The notes beneath the pieces were generated by a model, which had not been told where the DNA came from, did not search any database, and was given only the letters and a program-made list of their open reading frames with translations. Source: a virus. From it: a stretch of DNA of 41,670 nucleotides. Made by a program: the position numbers and the translations under genes. Shown in pieces: positions 28,552 through 31,555 of the stretch. Each line of letters begins with the position of its first letter. Position 1 is the first letter of the stretch. The DNA is taken from IMG/VR virus record IMGVR_UViG_3300045988_129826. One strand, given 5' to 3'.

Positions 28552-30879
28552 TTAATTATTTTTAAGTTCCGGAGGAAGTTTAGTTATGAAAGATTCATAT
28601 CCATCCTTAGATTTAATTAAATTTAAGCTATGATATTGTTTTAAATTAAGTAAATCATCTAAGCAATAACCATGAATATTAAACTCTTCCTCTAAAGCTT
28701 CAAATGCTTTTTTATCTACTCCTGATATTAACATATAGCTTGCATTAGAATTTTTAAGAGCTGATTGAGCTTCTTTGGATAATTGATCCATATAATGTAG
28801 TGTTAAAACATATTTTAATCCAAACTTAGCACTCTGTACAAACTGCTTAGTTAATAGCTTTTGAGATGTAGGAGATTGAAATACTTCATCTATAAGGACA
28901 GTACATCTTCCAGGATGCTCGTGCATAGTACCTCTTATTTTAGTTGCTATCCAAATTTTTTGAATAAAAAATGTTGTTAATATATCTATTGATATATCAT
29001 CATCAAAGTCTATATCCCTCATTCTTATTAATACAACTTTACCTTGTTCTATAGCATCTACAAAATCAACATTATCTTTAGGATCTTTTGATAACATACT
29101 ATCTATAACTAAATTTTCTCTTAATAAATCAATTCTATCTATTATACCCTCTATCTTGTTATCTTTAGTTCCACATATTGTTGGAATAGGATTATCTTTT
29201 GTTACTTTACTATAATCATCCAACTCCTCTAAAGCTATAATGCTATCTTCTAAATCTATTTTTAATTCCTCTGATAATTTATCAATAAACTCATGTCTAA
29301 CTGTATGACTTTGAAGTATCTTTAATATATCTTTCATGCTAGTTCCAGGGCTACAAAATGCAACTCTTGCAGCTGCGCCTAAATACTTTCTCATCTTTGG
29401 AGCTAGTTGCTTATCATCATTATTAATAATATTTACTAACTGTAATACATAGTTAGCTTGCATTCTAGCTGTTTTAAGTACTTCATCTTTGCTCATACCT
29501 TCTTTAATTCTTATCTCATTATAAGCTAATGATTGAACATGTTTAGGATTAGATAAATCTATTTCTATAAGTCTATTTATAGGTACAATACTTTTTATTT
29601 GTTCTGCTAACTCTGTATTCTTTATAAAGTCTATTACTATAAGCCCTTCTCCTGCATCGATAATATTCTTGCACATATTTATACTAAAAGTAGATTTCCC
29701 ACTTCTAGAACCTCCCATAATAGCTAAAGGTAATGATTGTAAACTTTTATCATTGCTTAAATATGCACATTCTTTATTGTCCTTGTATTTAACTTTTCCT
29801 AAATTAACAACTCCTGATTTTAATTCTTCTGGTACTGGATTCTCTCTAGTCTGCTTATGTTCTATATTTTTATATTGATTTAATAAACTCGCTCCAGGTA
29901 ATACTATAAAATTATTACATTCATCTTCGCTAGTCATATTTACAGCTACATCATTTATAATTGTTGAATATATATTAATTTTCTTATTGATTTTTTTACC
30001 TACCAACTTATTATCCTCAGATATTTCATCAAAACTATTACAAGCTGATAAAGATAACTGTTTTTCACGCTCTTTTTTATCACTTTTACTTAAAATTATC
30101 ACTTGAGATTTACATATATTATTTTTAGCCTTTCTAATAGTGCTAGGAGATTCTATTTTATTTGTAGATATAAATAATTGATGATTGATTTTAGATGTGC
30201 TTAAAATCGAATTTACAAGGTCATCTAAAAAGGTTATTAAAAATTTAAGTGTAATAATACCTAAATCGATAACATTTTTACTCTTTTTTAAGTTTTCTCC
30301 ATTTTTATATCGTTCAATAGCTTCTTTATATGTTATCTTAAAATAACTACTTTCTTGTTCACTAGTTGGAATAAAGTTATAAAATATACCTACGCATTCA
30401 TTTTGCTCTAGAACTTCTAAAACTGACATATTAGAAGATAATAACTCATTATTTCTTTTATCTACGCTTAAACTCAAAGAGTCATTCATGCTATATCTAA
30501 GTTGATACTTGGTACACTCATTAGGATCTATAGGAATACTATCAACTTCTCTTATCTCTATATTCTTCCAAACTTCTGTAAACTTGCTTTTAAACTTTAT
30601 AAAATGTACTTTTGGTATTATAAAATAAAATCTAACATCTCTTTTAGTTATATGAATGTAATAAGAAGCTTTTAATGTATTTTTTATTATTAGCTTTTTA
30701 TTCTCTATAGTTATAAGTTTATTAACTTTAACATGCATACTATTAATTAATGTTGCTATGCTACTTGTAGCGTTATTTTTATTTGACTTAGTTGGTATTA
30801 ACTGTACTGTTATATATTCAGCTTTCTTAACTTCTAATAATTTACTAAGAGGAACACTTTGAACTTTCTTAAATTCCAA
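28552..30879 (-). CDS. VirB4/VirD4(TraG)-like FtsK-HerA-superfamily P-loop ATPase
   Basis: 775 aa. Walker A GGSRSGKST at aa 389-397, followed by GLIVIDF. Walker B VLIDEV at aa 661-666, followed by AKFGLKYVLTLHYMDQL. The A-B spacing of about 270 aa and the soluble 380-aa N-domain fit T4SS-type ATPases. Confidence 0.55.
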   Translation of the reverse strand: MEFKKVQSVPLSKLLEVKKAEYITVQLIPTKSNKNNATSSIATLINSMHVKVNKLITIENKKLIIKNTLKASYYIHITKRDVRFYFIIPKVHFIKFKSKFTEVWKNIEIREVDSIPIDPNECTKYQLRYSMNDSLSLSVDKRNNELLSSNMSVLEVLEQNECVGIFYNFIPTSEQESSYFKITYKEAIERYKNGENLKKSKNVIDLGIITLKFLITFLDDLVNSILSTSKINHQLFISTNKIESPSTIRKAKNNICKSQVIILSKSDKKEREKQLSLSACNSFDEISEDNKLVGKKINKKINIYSTIINDVAVNMTSEDECNNFIVLPGASLLNQYKNIEHKQTRENPVPEELKSGVVNLGKVKYKDNKECAYLSNDKSLQSLPLAIMGGSRSGKSTFSINMCKNIIDAGEGLIVIDFIKNTELAEQIKSIVPINRLIEIDLSNPKHVQSLAYNEIRIKEGMSKDEVLKTARMQANYVLQLVNIINNDDKQLAPKMRKYLGAAARVAFCSPGTSMKDILKILQSHTVRHEFIDKLSEELKIDLEDSIIALEELDDYSKVTKDNPIPTICGTKDNKIEGIIDRIDLLRENLVIDSMLSKDPKDNVDFVDAIEQGKVVLIRMRDIDFDDDISIDILTTFFIQKIWIATKIRGTMHEHPGRCTVLIDEVFQSPTSQKLLTKQFVQSAKFGLKYVLTLHYMDQLSKEAQSALKNSNASYMLISGVDKKAFEALEEEFNIHGYCLDDLLNLKQYHSLNLIKSKDGYESFITKLPPELKNN

Positions 30880-31126
30880 TTAAAACACCTCCTAATATTC
30901 TTAGTATCATATATATTGCAGGTGCTATAAAAGCAAAATCTTTTCCTTTTTTAAGTCCAAATAAATATAGTATTAATCCAATTACTCCACCTATAACACA
31001 TATCCAATAGCTAGAAAGTACAATATCTTTAAATATATCAGTTAAAATCATATTTATTTTATTATGTGCTCCTTCAATCATTATTTCGCCCCAGTTTAAA
31101 GGATTCCATAAATTTAAGTTGTTCAT
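30869..31126 (-). CDS. Small two-TM membrane protein (VirB3/TcpE-like by position)
   Basis: 85 aa with two hydrophobic helices (VLSSYWICVIGGVIGLILYLFGL and FAFIAPAIYMILRILGGVLIGI). It overlaps the ATPase start by 11 nt. Confidence 0.45.
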   Translation of the reverse strand: MNNLNLWNPLNWGEIMIEGAHNKINMILTDIFKDIVLSSYWICVIGGVIGLILYLFGLKKGKDFAFIAPAIYMILRILGGVLIGI

Positions 31127-31138
31127 ATATACCCCTCC

Positions 31139-31555
31139 TTAGAATTTTATTTTGCTAAATAAATCAAATAGTTGAGGATATAAACTTATAAATACATACG
31201 CTAGAATATATATTAATCCATTATTTATAGCATTTTTAACATTACCACCATTTAAAACAGTTACTATCATATCTTTTACTCCAAACCCTATGCATCCCCA
31301 TTTTGCAAATGCCATTAATAACTCTAATATTTGCATGCCTGCTGCATCTAAGCTAGTGCTAAAGTCATTTGCAAATACAAAGTTTATATTAAAATGTAAT
31401 AATAAAGCAGTAAAAAAAACTAATCTAGTATACATAATTTTATTATTTTTTATATTATCTATTAATCTCTCTACTAAAGTAATATCTTCACTTGTGTGCT
31501 CTTTTCTAAATTCTTTTAAAGTGTAACTTTTAATTCTATATCTATTTAATAACAT
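31139..31555 (-). CDS. Membrane protein with a signal-like segment plus two helices (VirB2/T4SS-pilin-like by architecture)
   Basis: 138 aa. RLVFFTALLLHFNINFVFA-NDF, then ILELLMAFAKWGCIGFGV and LIYILAYVFISLYPQLF. Confidence 0.4.
   Translation of the reverse strand: MLLNRYRIKSYTLKEFRKEHTSEDITLVERLIDNIKNNKIMYTRLVFFTALLLHFNINFVFANDFSTSLDAAGMQILELLMAFAKWGCIGFGVKDMIVTVLNGGNVKNAINNGLIYILAYVFISLYPQLFDLFSKIKF

What the first reader, a model, noticed from the sequence alone, without database searches (positions are those of the whole stretch)
28552..31555. Orphan virB2/virB3/virB4-like trio in the accessory arm of a siphophage
Three co-oriented ORFs look like the front end of a Gram-positive type IV secretion operon with nothing else attached; the last two overlap (30869-30879), suggesting translational coupling. 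The first (31139..31555, 138 aa) has a signal-like hydrophobic segment and two further helices, a VirB2/T4SS-pilin-like architecture. The second (30869..31126, 85 aa) is a two-TM hairpin, VirB3/TcpE-like. The third (28552..30879, 775 aa) is an ATPase with Walker A GGSRSGKST at aa 389-397 and Walker B VLIDEV at aa 661-666. The Walker B is followed by AKFGLKYVLTLHYMDQL. The Walker A-B spacing of about 270 aa and the soluble 380-aa N-domain are hallmarks of VirB4/VirD4-TraG ATPases, not of terminases, SF3 helicases or Zot. The order small-small-ATPase mirrors virB2-virB3-virB4 and tcpD-tcpE-tcpF. I see no relaxase, VirB6, VirB8, coupling protein or dedicated hydrolase anywhere in the 41.6 kb. The trio is bracketed by two paralogous RHH regulators and sits next to a ParM-like partition gene. 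It could be a decayed conjugation remnant. It could also be a minimal membrane DNA-translocation or exclusion device, or an undescribed phage-plasmid maintenance or defence module.
Basis: partly seen in the sequence, partly recalled or inferred. Interest (0 to 1): 0.78.

Follow-up and report, generated by a model that had tools for sequence, protein, structure and literature searches.

The report
Phage-borne minimal pilin–VirB4 ATPase module
A gut Romboutsia prophage carries a small, well-conserved gene set related to the pilin and motor ATPase of bacterial DNA-transfer machines but lacking the rest of that machine; the same set occurs in hundreds of phages and plasmids of spore-forming bacteria, including the model phage SPP1, and its function is still unknown.

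Summary
In detail: three co-oriented, RBS-preceded ORFs (138, 85 and 775 aa) at 28552-31555 (-), with the last two overlapping by 11 nt. The 775-aa protein is a VirB4-type ATPase. A high-confidence AlphaFold model matches R388 TrwK/VirB4 best, and its N-domain modelled alone matches only VirB4. The 138-aa protein belongs to a family with TrbC/VirB2-pilin architecture, and a few relatives pass or approach Pfam TrbC. The 85-aa hairpin is not VirB3-like: its basic loop, and fusions to an M23 peptidoglycan hydrolase in other lineages, predict the opposite topology. No VirB6, VirB8, coupling protein or relaxase occurs here or in 35 related loci. The trio is not a remnant: dN/dS is 0.10-0.16, the family has 595 clusters, and it occurs in lytic phages. 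It corresponds by position, architecture and ATPase homology to SPP1 genes 31.1-31.2-32, described in 2018 as a possible 'translocon', non-essential and uncharacterised. New findings are a restriction to mobile elements of endospore-forming Bacillota, frequent linkage to ParM, and a conserved unannotated 22-codon hydrophobic ORF on the opposite strand (31617-31685). Function remains inferred. I favour a minimal VirB4-powered envelope-spanning pilin assembly.

The parts
31862..32038 (-). 58-aa small ORF upstream of the module. It is a putative ribbon-helix-helix-type DNA-binding protein and a paralogue of the 66-aa ORF that precedes ParM.
   Evidence: The ORF is. It hits phrog_4223. It is a paralogue of 27991-28191 (E 2e-6). 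A homologous ~57-74-aa ORF lies at the same position in most related loci. The fold is not confirmed.
31830..31869 (+). GC-rich hairpin (GAGCTG...CAGCTC) followed by a T-run. It is a terminator-like element for the + strand small transcript and abuts the stop codon of the 58-aa ORF.
   Evidence: The sequence is. Compensatory stem changes among loci appear in alignment A8. It is predicted as a stable stem.
31798..31820 (.). Conserved palindrome CGAATTAAT-N5-ATTAATTCG in the spacer. It could be an operator or an RNA hairpin; its function is unknown.
31617..31685 (+). Unannotated 22-codon ORF on the opposite strand (MPSFVYWFGAAALIDVVQKILF) encoding a hydrophobic peptide. It may be a type I-toxin-like peptide or a small membrane subunit.
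   Evidence: It has SD GGAGGTG, 7 nt, then ATG. An equivalent ORF of 21-30 codons occupies the same position and orientation in about 23 related loci. Only 0.7% of shuffled spacers contain such an ORF, and only 2 occur in the whole window.
31568..31609 (+). Promoter-like TTAAAT-16 nt-TATAAT (31568-31595) and SD (31603-31609) for the small + strand ORF. These overlap the RBS region of the pilin-like gene on the other strand.
   Evidence: The sequence is. The -10 block and the ACCTCC/GGAGGT block are conserved or invariant in A8. Promoter assignment is by consensus only.
31139..31555 (-). 138-aa TrbC/VirB2-type propilin-like protein. It has a ~62-aa leader ending VFA and a 76-aa mature part with two hydrophobic helices joined by a short polar loop.
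   Evidence: It matches a profile built only from family members under 30% identical at E 1.7e-20. Four of 29 family members hit Pfam TrbC, one above the gathering score. The window protein itself has no Pfam hit. dN/dS is 0.10.
30869..31126 (-). 85-aa two-TM hairpin protein, translationally coupled to the ATPase. Predicted topology is N-out/C-out with a basic cytoplasmic loop (GLKKGKD). In other lineages it is the membrane anchor of an M23 peptidoglycan hydrolase.
   Evidence: Loop charge is 69 K/R against 12 D/E over 27 members. M23 fusions occur in L025, L031 and L036. There are no VirB3 hits. dN/dS is 0.12.
28552..30879 (-). 775-aa VirB4-type ATPase. It has a soluble N-domain (1-~350) and a C-terminal RecA-like domain with a helical insertion between Walker A (389-397) and Walker B (661-666).
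   Evidence: It hits phrog_5156 at E 6.6e-89. The AF2 model has pLDDT 91.7. Foldseek's top hit is TrwK/VirB4 8rtd at E 2e-12, followed by HerA and TrwB. For the N-domain alone, the top 9 hits are all TrwK/VirB4. Invariant catalytic residues are. dN/dS is 0.16.
28302..28529 (-). 75-aa ORF downstream of the ATPase. It is not membrane-associated, is not conserved outside the closest relative, and is probably not part of the core module.
   Evidence: found only in L008.
27991..28191 (-). 66-aa paralogue of the 58-aa ORF, 11 nt upstream of ParM. It is a putative ParR-like adaptor or regulator.
   Evidence: (phrog_18533, phrog_4223).
27110..27979 (-). Actin-like ParM-type segregation protein. An actin-like gene is linked to the module in about 40% of related loci.
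   Evidence: Pfam ALP_N and MreB-like_C. phrog_691. An actin-like gene lies within 4.6 kb in 10-11 of 27 loci, mostly directly upstream on the same strand.
27085..27110 (-). Terminator-like hairpin plus T-run at the end of the ParM gene. It is the likely end of the transcription unit that contains the module.

Best explanation
This is a functional accessory module derived from a type IV secretion system, of the same type as SPP1 genes 31.1-31.2-32. Its core is a TrbC/VirB2-type propilin (138 aa), a two-TM anchor protein (85 aa) and a VirB4-type ATPase (775 aa). The core is preceded by a small DNA-binding-like ORF and, in many Clostridia-type loci, by a tiny hydrophobic ORF on the opposite strand. 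Shown: the genes are intact, translationally coupled, under purifying selection and conserved in synteny across hundreds of phages, prophages and plasmids. The ATPase has a VirB4 fold in both domains and intact catalytic residues. No other T4SS component accompanies it. Inferred from sequence: the 138-aa protein is inserted with a long leader that is cleaved after the conserved Ala, leaving a 76-aa two-helix subunit. The 85-aa protein sits N-out/C-out with a basic cytoplasmic loop, and in some lineages it carries an M23 peptidoglycan hydrolase outside the membrane. Inferred by analogy with VirB4 in T4SSs: the ATPase oligomer docks at the cytoplasmic face of these membrane proteins. It then uses ATP to extract and assemble the pilin-like subunit into a short fibre or conduit that crosses the membrane and wall of the infected or lysogenic cell. 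What passes through it is not known; I consider the element's own nucleic acid the most likely cargo.
For: ORFs, RBSs, overlap and motifs are. The full-length match to phrog_5156 is. Synteny of small-small-ATPase holds in phiCp-D, SPP1, TPDSL_ph2, C. botulinum and C. tetani plasmids, and 28 genome loci. The family has 595 clusters at 50% identity. dN/dS is 0.10-0.16. The AF2 model has pLDDT 91.7, and the best PDB matches are full-length TrwK/VirB4, then HerA and TrwB. For the N-domain modelled alone (pLDDT 92.9), the top nine hits are all TrwK/VirB4. Relatives of the ATPase pass Pfam TrwB_AAD_bind, and a relative of the small protein passes Pfam TrbC. Four of 29 pilin-like members hit TrbC, and the window protein is a firm member of that family (E 1.7e-20). 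Leaders are 40-92 aa, ending in Ala in 27 of 29 members, and mature parts are 68-83 aa. M23 peptidase fusions to the hairpin indicate action across the cell wall. The SPP1 authors independently reported HHpred matches of gp32 to TrwB, VirB4 and FtsK, and TM predictions for gp31.1 and gp31.2 (PMC6316719). VirB2-like pili have recently been argued to be general in Gram-positive T4SSs (bioRxiv 10.64898/2025.12.18.695078).
Against: None of the three window proteins reaches any curated Pfam or NCBIfam T4SS model. Sequence profiles of the small proteins find no solved VirB2 or VirB3. The N-domain structural match is weak (E about 1e-3, TM 0.3-0.4). In known T4SSs the pilus is assembled on a VirB6 platform, and no VirB6-like protein is present here or conserved in relatives. 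The M23-hairpin fusions lack a signal peptide, so export of that domain is unexplained. SPP1 genes 31.2 and 32 are dispensable for lytic growth. No experiment bears on assembly or cargo. Leader cleavage, topology and oligomerisation are predictions.
Confidence: 0.5

Rival explanations
1. The module is a genome-delivery or segregation device. The ATPase acts as a DNA translocase (like TrwB, FtsK or SpoIIIE) at a membrane pore formed by the small proteins. It works with the linked ParM/ParR-like system to move or trap the phage or plasmid genome across a septum, either into the forespore or into a sister cell of a chain.
For: The family is confined almost entirely to mobile elements of endospore-forming Bacillota in both Bacilli and Clostridia. 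These include Bacillus, Geobacillus, Lysinibacillus, Brevibacillus, Alicyclobacillus, Paenibacillus, Clostridium, Terrisporobacter, Romboutsia, Paraclostridium and Desulfosporosinus. No hits occur in phages or plasmids of non-sporulating Bacilli. An actin-like ParM gene is linked in about 40% of loci, often as ParM-small ORF-pilin-hairpin-ATPase. The ATPase core resembles DNA-translocating TrwB and HerA nearly as well as VirB4. Relatives pass the Pfam TrwB DNA-binding-domain model. Entrapment of lytic phage genomes in spores is an established phenomenon (PMC2731898, PMC12991052).
Against: The N-domain points to VirB4, which is not known to translocate DNA itself. No DNA-recognition domain or cis site has been identified. 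The phyletic pattern could reflect a shared gene pool rather than sporulation, and a few hosts (an Anaerovoracaceae MAG, one Microcystis phage hit) do not fit. SPP1 has the module but no ParM. Nothing was tested.
Confidence: 0.13
2. The module is a superinfection-exclusion or anti-phage defence device. Membrane proteins plus an ATPase block DNA entry of competing phages or plasmids, or sense and abort infection.
For: The module lies in the accessory region between the lysis cassette and the lysogeny module, 1-2 kb from the prophage end, where exclusion and defence genes commonly sit. It is non-essential in SPP1. The ATPase core matches the PADLOC model mad8 (E 2e-9). It structurally resembles HerA and DndH/DptH ATPases of defence systems. 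In pCLK the pair neighbours an AAA_21/AbiEii-type ATPase, a protein with a weak HNH match, and a methylase.
Against: The match is to the ATPase domain only, and none of the partner genes of MADS, SIR2-HerA or Dnd/Dpt is present. The module occurs in strictly lytic phages within an early operon. Known defence ATPases of this clade are cytosolic with nuclease or NADase partners. They do not come with a leader-bearing pilin-like protein or a wall hydrolase.
Confidence: 0.15
3. The module is an accessory to lysis or cell-wall remodelling. Membrane proteins and an ATPase help the M23 hydrolase or endolysin act on the wall at release or during infection.
For: The module usually follows the holin-endolysin cassette. 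In SPP1 it lies in the same early transcription unit as lysis genes. The hairpin is fused to an M23 peptidase in three lineages.
Against: The position is equally explained as the usual insertion point for accessory genes. A 775-aa VirB4-type ATPase and a pilin-like protein have no precedent in lysis systems. Most members, including the window, lack the M23 domain. The window has its own holin and endolysin.
Confidence: 0.07
4. The trio is a decaying fragment of a conjugative element captured by the phage.
For: It has a T4SS-like ancestry and lacks all other T4SS genes.
Against: The reading frames are intact with strong RBSs. dN/dS is 0.10-0.16. Catalytic residues are invariant. The same arrangement is conserved across 595 protein clusters and in lytic phages. 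None of 53 plasmids carrying the ATPase is typed as conjugative. The family is never found inside a complete T4SS locus in the loci examined.
Confidence: 0.02

Closest known systems
Bacillus phage SPP1 genes 31.1, 31.2 and 32 (Godinho et al. 2018, PMC6316719)
   Same: The gene order and sizes match: a ~120-aa protein with 3 predicted TM segments, a ~105-aa protein with 2 TM segments, and an ~800-aa soluble ATPase whose start overlaps the preceding gene. gp32 aligns with the window ATPase over 99% of its length (20% identity, E 6e-10), and both fall in phrog_5156. The SPP1 authors reported HHpred matches to TrwB, VirB4 and FtsK and proposed a membrane translocon.
   Different: SPP1 is strictly lytic and expresses the genes in an early operon, whereas the window is a temperate phage with the module near the prophage end. 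Sequence homology of the small proteins is not demonstrable beyond a 15-aa leader motif shared with Bacillaceae intermediates. SPP1 lacks the ParM neighbour and the opposite-strand small ORF. Function is unknown in both.
VirB2-VirB3-VirB4 subassembly of type IV secretion systems (R388 TrwL/TrwM/TrwK, PDB 8RTD and 7O42)
   Same: The ATPase shares the two-domain VirB4 fold. A leader-bearing two-helix small protein of TrbC/VirB2 type is present. The gene order is small, small, ATPase, with coupling of the second small gene to the ATPase.
   Different: VirB6, VirB8, VirB1/5/7/9/10/11, VirD4 and relaxase are all absent. The window proteins match no curated T4SS sequence model. The second small protein has the opposite predicted topology to VirB3 and no VirB3 sequence signal. 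The carrier is a phage, not a conjugative element.
Gram-positive conjugation T4SS, e.g. pCF10 PrgF(VirB2-like)/PrgH(VirB6)/PrgI/PrgJ(VirB4)/PrgK (bioRxiv 10.64898/2025.12.18.695078)
   Same: It has a small two-TM pilin-like protein with a short charged loop together with a VirB4 ATPase in a Bacillota host. A peptidoglycan hydrolase is associated with the apparatus: M23 fusions in some members here, and PrgK in pCF10, which carries a LytM-type domain (my own knowledge).
   Different: The preprint's pilus models require a pentameric VirB6-like protein, which is absent here. Canonical Firmicute VirB4s (Tcp, Prg) are not detectably similar by tblastn: only 53 plasmids hit, none typed as conjugative.
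Archaeal Ced DNA-import system (CedA1/CedA2 small membrane proteins, CedA, CedB VirB4/HerA-like ATPase); recalled from memory, not tested here
   Same: It is a reduced T4SS-derived set with two small two-TM proteins, one of them a VirB2-like pilin, and a VirB4-clade ATPase. It lacks relaxase and coupling protein.
   Different: Ced includes a polytopic VirB6-like CedA, is chromosomal and imports DNA. No sequence or structural comparison was made here.
HerA-clade ATPases of defence systems (SIR2-HerA, DUF4297-HerA, DndH/DptH, MADS mad8)
   Same: The ATPase core is structurally similar (Foldseek E 1e-11 to 1e-9), and PADLOC mad8 matches at E 2e-9.
   Different: The N-domain matches VirB4, not the HerA N-domain. 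No effector partners are present. The window protein has membrane-protein partners instead.

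Membership tests
T4SS VirB4 ATPase | C-terminal RecA-like ATPase domain with Walker A/B and a helical insertion, structurally like the VirB4/TrwB clade | tested here: met
   Walker motifs are and invariant catalytic residues. Foldseek gives TrwK/VirB4 8rtd at E 2e-12, Thermoanaerobacter VirB4 4ag5 at E 3e-9 (TMt 0.65), and TrwB at 6e-10.
T4SS VirB4 ATPase | VirB4-type soluble N-terminal domain of about 350-400 aa | tested here: met
   The N-domain modelled alone has pLDDT 92.9. The top nine PDB hits are all TrwK/VirB4, with E 1.2e-3 to 1.4e-2 and probability up to 0.98, and no other coherent hit follows. 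The match is weak but specific.
T4SS VirB4 ATPase | Match to curated sequence models (Pfam CagE_TrbE_VirB, AAA_10; NCBIfam VirB4/TrbE) | tested here: not met
   There are no such hits at E <= 0.1 for the window protein. A 70-sequence profile against PDB sequences gives VirB4 only at E 0.36.
T4SS VirB4 ATPase | Encoded within a T4SS locus (VirB6, VirB8, hydrolase, coupling protein, relaxase) | tested here: not met
   The window has no polytopic ORF and no T4SS or relaxase families. Polytopic ORFs near related loci are unrelated host transporters. The pCLK pair is also orphan.
VirD4 / type IV coupling protein (TrwB, TraG) | N-terminal transmembrane anchor followed directly by the nucleotide-binding domain | tested here: not met
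   The protein has a 350-aa soluble N-domain with no convincing TM segment.
VirD4 / type IV coupling protein (TrwB, TraG) | Match to Pfam TrwB_AAD_bind, T4SS-DNA_transf or TraG-D_C | tested here: inconclusive
   The window protein has no hit. Homologues from C. tetani (32.3 bits) and TPDSL_ph2 (21.5 bits) pass the TrwB_AAD_bind gathering score of 20.5, but only over about 90 residues around Walker B.
TrbC/VirB2 pilin | Long leader peptide, then a mature subunit of about 70 aa with two hydrophobic helices joined by a short polar or charged loop | tested here: met
   The alignment of 29 family members is. Leaders are 40-92 aa, ending in Ala in 27 of 29 members, and mature parts are 68-83 aa. The window protein has a 62-aa leader (…VFA) and a 76-aa mature part. 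Cleavage itself is predicted, not shown.
TrbC/VirB2 pilin | Match to Pfam TrbC (PF04956) or T4SS_pilin | tested here: inconclusive
   The window protein has no hit. The pCLK relative scores 28.5 bits against a gathering score of 27.9. Four of 29 family members hit at E < 0.05. The pCLK protein matches the family profile at 27.9 bits. The family profile finds no solved pilin.
TrbC/VirB2 pilin | Polymerises into a helical pilus on a VirB6 platform | not testable with these tools
   No multimer modelling is available, and no VirB6-like gene is present.
VirB3 | Small two-TM protein encoded immediately upstream of, or fused to, VirB4 | tested here: met
   The 85-aa two-TM protein overlaps the ATPase start by 11 nt. 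This holds in all related loci.
VirB3 | Match to Pfam VirB3 and cytoplasmic N- and C-termini that contact VirB4 | tested here: not met
   None of 27 members hits VirB3. The loop carries 69 K/R against 12 D/E, the N-segment is acidic and there is no C-tail, which predicts loop-in and termini-out. N-terminal M23 peptidoglycan hydrolase fusions require an outside N-terminus. Topology is predicted, not measured.
SPP1 gp31.1-gp31.2-gp32 type module | ATPase homologous to gp32 over its full length | tested here: met
   tblastn gives 99% coverage, 20% identity and E 6e-10. Both fall in phrog_5156 (E 6.6e-89).
SPP1 gp31.1-gp31.2-gp32 type module | Two small membrane proteins (3 TM, then 2 TM) directly upstream, the second overlapping the ATPase start | tested here: met
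SPP1 gp31.1-gp31.2-gp32 type module | Sequence homology of the two small proteins to gp31.1 and gp31.2 | tested here: inconclusive
   Family profiles do not detect gp31.1 or gp31.2. gp31.1 shares only a 15-aa leader motif with the Robertmurraya member (E 4e-5), and that member matches the window protein over its full length (E 9e-7).
HerA-clade defence ATPases (MADS, SIR2-HerA, Dnd/Dpt) | HerA-type N-domain and adjacent effector or partner genes | tested here: not met
   The N-domain matches VirB4 only. PADLOC shows only a domain-level mad8 hit, and no partner genes are found.
Type I toxin-antitoxin (for the 22-codon opposite-strand ORF) | Small hydrophobic peptide gene overlapped by an antisense transcript; toxic when expressed | not testable with these tools
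   The peptide gene with SD, promoter-like and terminator-like elements is conserved. Read-through from the 58-aa ORF would be antisense to it. Transcription and toxicity are unknown. There is no Rfam match.

The most novel reading that the evidence does not exclude
Phages and plasmids of endospore-forming Bacillota carry a virus-adapted, minimal VirB2/VirB4 machine. It works without VirB6, VirB8, VirD4 or relaxase, often together with an actin-like ParM system, to pass the element's own genome across a cell-cell or mother cell-forespore boundary. That would make it a phage-encoded conjugation-like or spore-loading device. It would also show that a pilin plus a VirB4 ATPase (plus a two-TM anchor or hydrolase) is sufficient to build a working conduit.
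Probability: 0.12. Interest if true: 0.9.

Novelty: new variant of a known kind. Interest (0 to 1): 0.6.

Why it matters
The module is a drastically reduced relative of the type IV secretion apparatus, and it is widespread. The ATPase family has 595 clusters at 50% identity. Members occur in model phage SPP1, SPO1-like and Tsamsa-like Bacillus phages, Clostridium phage-plasmid-sized replicons, C. botulinum toxin plasmids and an abundant human-gut Romboutsia prophage. Despite this it has no known function. If it assembles a VirB2-type structure without VirB6, it would redefine the minimal requirements for pilus or conduit assembly in Gram-positive bacteria, a question reopened by the recent PrgF work. 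Its restriction to spore-formers and its linkage to ParM suggest a role in how mobile elements persist or spread in sporulating populations. The genes are dispensable in SPP1 and B. subtilis is tractable, so these hypotheses are directly testable. The conserved opposite-strand micro-ORF adds an unannotated regulatory or toxin-like element to the picture.

Tried and rejected
Megablast of the region against phages found nothing. Pfam and NCBIfam gave no significant family for any of the three window proteins.

The first homologue search returned only near-identical Romboutsia variants and was useless for a profile. This biases the genome survey towards closer relatives.

The sequence profile of the ATPase against PDB chains gave only P-loop-level matches. 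Profiles of the pilin-like and hairpin families found no solved VirB2 or VirB3. The homologue search with the pilin profile returned only unannotated proteins without Pfam domains.

The RHH assignment for the 58- and 66-aa ORFs could not be confirmed. Rfam gave no credible RNA in the region. The sigma-70 promoter scan was uninformative in this AT-rich DNA (60 sites found against 59.7 expected).

I considered that polytopic ORFs downstream of the ATPase in related loci might be VirB6-like. They are unrelated host transporters. I considered that pCLK-type plasmids might embed the pair in a full T4SS. They do not within 12 kb either side. I considered a holin role for the hairpin and rejected it, because the window has its own holin and endolysin and the hairpin is coupled to the ATPase. 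I considered terminase, helicase or Zot-type ATPase and rejected these on the structural matches. Literature searches found no functional study of the module.

Full report
**Observation.** All are on the minus strand, and the last two overlap by 11 nt. Each is preceded by a strong Shine-Dalgarno sequence. Walker A (GGSRSGKST, 389-397) and Walker B (VLIDEV, 661-666) are present. G394, K395, D664 and E665, together with R528 and R582, are invariant in an alignment of 70 diverse homologues. The 85-aa protein is a two-helix hairpin. The 138-aa protein has a signal-like hydrophobic segment and further hydrophobic helices. The ATPase has no convincing membrane segment.

**Genomic setting.** The window is a temperate siphophage-type genome. 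On the minus strand the order is: tail fibre, holin, endolysin, a 485-aa unknown, a secreted MBL-fold/SLH protein, a 58-aa ORF, the trio, a 75-aa ORF, a 66-aa ORF and a ParM-type actin. The integrase and repressor follow on the other strand, and then the anti-repressor, replication, packaging, head and tail genes. The few homologues that carry organism names are attributed to Romboutsia timonensis or other Peptostreptococcaceae. A 95%-identical copy sits in the R. timonensis Marseille-P326 chromosome.

**The trio is a conserved module.** None of the three proteins reaches a curated Pfam or NCBIfam family. The ATPase does match phrog_5156 (unknown function) over its full length (E 6.6e-89). tblastn finds it in 89 phage records and 53 plasmids. 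An exhaustive search of 50%-identity representatives finds 595 clusters, most of 750-850 aa.

In every annotated neighbourhood inspected, the ATPase gene is preceded by a ~120-150-aa hydrophobic ORF and then a ~56-126-aa two-TM ORF that abuts or overlaps its start. These neighbourhoods are Clostridium phage phiCp-D, Terrisporobacter phage TPDSL_ph2, a C. botulinum C/D plasmid, a C. tetani plasmid and Bacillus phage SPP1. The same holds in 28 genome loci from Romboutsia, Terrisporobacter, Paraclostridium, Clostridium, Sedimentibacter, Desulfosporosinus, Paenibacillus and Robertmurraya.

Against the 95%-identical R. timonensis copy, dN/dS is 0.10, 0.12 and 0.16 for the three genes. The 'decayed remnant' reading is therefore refuted.

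**It has been described before.** The 2018 re-annotation of SPP1 (PMC6316719) reports gp31.1 (3 predicted TM), gp31.2 (2 TM) and gp32 (836 aa). It reports HHpred matches of the gp32 C-terminus to TrwB, VirB4 and FtsK. [quoted passage not shown] The window ATPase aligns with gp32 over 99% of its length (20% identity, E 6e-10). The window trio is thus a distant Clostridia-branch member of that uncharacterised module. I found no later functional study.

**The ATPase.** An AlphaFold2 model built on the 70-sequence alignment is confident (pLDDT 91.7, pTM 0.78). Against the PDB, the best matches are full-length alignments to TrwK/VirB4 of the R388 T4SS (E 2e-12). HerA (1e-11), TrwB/VirD4 (6e-10), the DndH C-domain, Thermoanaerobacter VirB4 (3e-9, TMt 0.65) and Cagbeta follow.

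These all share the ATPase core, so I modelled residues 1-350 alone (pLDDT 92.9). Its nine best PDB hits are all TrwK/VirB4 (E 1.2e-3 to 1.4e-2, probability up to 0.98), and nothing coherent follows. The match is weak but specific. Both domains therefore point to VirB4 rather than to HerA, which has a different N-domain, or VirD4, which has an N-terminal membrane anchor and no such domain.

Some relatives pass Pfam TrwB_AAD_bind around Walker B. PADLOC gives only a domain-level match to mad8. Sequence profiles against PDB chains give only P-loop-level similarity.

**The 138-aa protein.** An alignment of 29 positional homologues shows three parts. The first is a variable leader of 40-92 aa with a hydrophobic stretch ending in Ala in 27 of 29 sequences. 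The second and third form a 68-83-aa mature part with two hydrophobic helices joined by a short polar loop. This is the architecture of TrbC/VirB2 propilins.

The window protein matches a profile built only from members under 30% identical to it at E 1.7e-20. The equivalent protein of C. botulinum plasmid pCLK passes Pfam TrbC (28.5 bits against a gathering score of 27.9), is named 'TrbC/VirB2 family protein' in RefSeq, and matches the family profile at 27.9 bits. Four of 29 members hit TrbC at E < 0.05. The family profile finds no solved pilin, which fits the very low sequence conservation reported for VirB2-like proteins. I rate true VirB2/TrbC homology as probable, not proven.

**The 85-aa protein.** It is a firm member of its own family (E 3e-9 against distant members only), but none of 27 members matches Pfam VirB3. 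Its 7-residue inter-helix loop carries 69 K/R against 12 D/E across the family. The N-terminal segment is net acidic, and there is no C-terminal tail. By the positive-inside rule, the loop is cytoplasmic and both termini are outside. That is the topology of mature VirB2/PrgF-type subunits and the opposite of VirB3.

There is independent support for this. In Robertmurraya, Paenibacillus and Desulfosporosinus loci the same hairpin is fused to an N-terminal M23 peptidoglycan endopeptidase (Pfam E 5e-18 to 8e-29), and that domain must act outside the membrane. These fusions lack a signal peptide, which is unexplained. The 'VirB3-like' label is therefore not supported. The protein is better described as a two-TM anchor, or possibly a second pilin-like subunit, that links the ATPase to the envelope.

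**It is orphan.** No window ORF with real coding support has four or more TM segments. No relaxase, VirB6, VirB8 or coupling protein family is found. In 35 related loci, the polytopic ORFs found downstream of the ATPase are unrelated host transporters: Na:Ala, SDF, DcuC, MatE and ABC permeases. This shows that the module sits 1-2 kb from the prophage end, not next to a VirB6. The distant pCLK pair (pilin plus ATPase, no hairpin) is also isolated within 12 kb either side. None of the 53 plasmids carrying the ATPase is typed as conjugative.

**Wider context.**
- *Host range.* Queried with either the window protein or SPP1 gp32, the phage and plasmid collections return hosts that are almost all endospore-forming Bacillota of both classes, apart from one Microcystis hit. 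There are no hits to phages or plasmids of Staphylococcus, Streptococcus, Lactococcus, Listeria or Enterococcus, which are numerous in these collections (my own knowledge). The pattern follows sporulation rather than phylogeny, but this has not been tested with phylogenetic correction.
- *ParM linkage.* An actin-like ParM gene lies within 4.6 kb in 10-11 of 27 loci with sufficient flanks. It is mostly directly upstream, in the order ParM, small ORF, pilin-like, hairpin, ATPase.
- *Upstream small ORF.* A small ORF homologous to the window's 58-aa protein precedes the module in most loci. It is a paralogue of the 66-aa ORF in front of ParM.
- *Opposite-strand micro-ORF.* The ~300-nt spacer between the 58-aa ORF and the pilin-like gene holds a conserved, unannotated 21-30-codon ORF on the opposite strand (window 31617-31685, MPSFVYWFGAAALIDVVQKILF). 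It has a strong SD, a promoter-like TTAAAT-16-TATAAT, a conserved palindrome, and a hairpin plus T-run with compensatory changes. It occurs in about 23 loci, whereas 0.7% of shuffled spacers contain such an ORF. Read-through from upstream would be antisense to it, an arrangement reminiscent of type I toxin-antitoxin pairs. It could equally be a small membrane subunit or a regulator.

**Mechanism.** The intact, coupled, selected genes, the VirB4 fold with conserved catalytic residues, the pilin-type architecture and the absence of other T4SS parts are shown. Leader cleavage, N-out/C-out insertion of both small proteins and an extracellular hydrolase in some lineages are inferred from sequence.

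By analogy with the established role of VirB4 as the ATPase that energises pilin extraction and pilus assembly, I infer the following. The ATPase oligomer docks on the cytoplasmic loops, and possibly through its own amphipathic helical hairpin at residues 174-226, which has lower pLDDT. It then assembles the pilin-like subunit into a short envelope-spanning fibre or conduit. The cargo is unknown.

The main difficulty is the missing VirB6 platform. Rivals are DNA translocation or segregation into the forespore or a sister cell, exclusion or defence at the membrane, and a lysis accessory. A remnant is excluded.

**Verdict.** The module is a reduced, phage- and plasmid-borne variant of the T4SS pilin/VirB4 subassembly. 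It has already been noted in SPP1 but remains functionally uncharacterised, and this analysis adds several new descriptive features. It is moderately to highly interesting because it is widespread, timely and testable in a tractable model.

Noticed in passing
window 31617-31685 (+), with flanking elements 31568-31609 and 31798-31869: An unannotated 22-codon hydrophobic ORF lies on the strand opposite to the module. It has a strong SD, a perfect -10 box, a conserved palindrome and a terminator-like hairpin showing compensatory changes. It is conserved in about 23 related loci and is not annotated in any GenBank record inspected. It may be a type I toxin-like gene or a small membrane subunit.
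   Followed up: partly
L008 10268-11389 (R. timonensis Marseille-P326 chromosome), corresponding to window ~28613-28620: In the 95%-identical chromosomal prophage copy, an element of about 1.1 kb encoding a 318-aa transposase-like protein is inserted in the last ~20 codons of the ATPase gene.
   Followed up: partly
window 26590-26831: Three direct copies and an inverted copy of AAAATGTCAGTT(T/A)AATG(C/T)CAGT lie between the integrase gene and the ParM terminator. Homology to the chromosomal prophage copy ends inside this cluster (~26807-26830). They are probably attP or arm-type integrase sites, though a parC-like centromere is not excluded.
   Followed up: partly
window 32325-33968 (-): A secreted 547-aa protein has a metallo-beta-lactamase-fold domain, three SLH cell-wall-binding domains and a Cys-rich C-terminal tail. 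It lies directly upstream of the module. Homologues sit in the same place in L010 and L012, but the gene is absent from the closest relative L008, so it is variable cargo. Its substrate is unknown.
   Followed up: partly
L025 7276-8019, L031 7330-8019, L036 7331-7990: In these loci the two-TM hairpin is fused to an N-terminal M23 peptidoglycan endopeptidase that has no signal peptide. How a ~150-aa N-terminal domain would be exported is unexplained.
   Followed up: partly
window 27110-27979 and 25407-26561: The phage carries both a ParM-type actin segregation gene and a tyrosine integrase, i.e. features of plasmid-type and integrative lysogeny together.
   Followed up: no
window 34436-35893 (-): A 485-aa protein lies between the endolysin and the MBL-SLH gene. 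It matches only phrog_13260 (unknown function) and no Pfam or PADLOC family.
   Followed up: no
L007 (phage D6E) ~4138-4770: The GenBank and RefSeq records of D6E leave about 1 kb upstream of the ATPase unannotated. It encodes a small ORF of the 58-aa type, an opposite-strand 25-codon hydrophobic ORF and a pilin-like ORF. The stretch contains ambiguous bases.
   Followed up: partly
L001 (phage phiCp-D) 5986-8401: The ATPase homologue is annotated as two CDSs ('lipid A export ATP-binding/permease' and 'TraD coupling protein'). This suggests a frameshift or sequencing error and misleading product names.
   Followed up: no
L003 (pCLK) 15454-18145: Next to the orphan TrbC-ATPase pair on the C. botulinum toxin plasmid lie an AAA_21/AbiEii-type ATPase and a protein with a weak, sub-threshold HNH match. 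These may form a defence gene pair.
   Followed up: no
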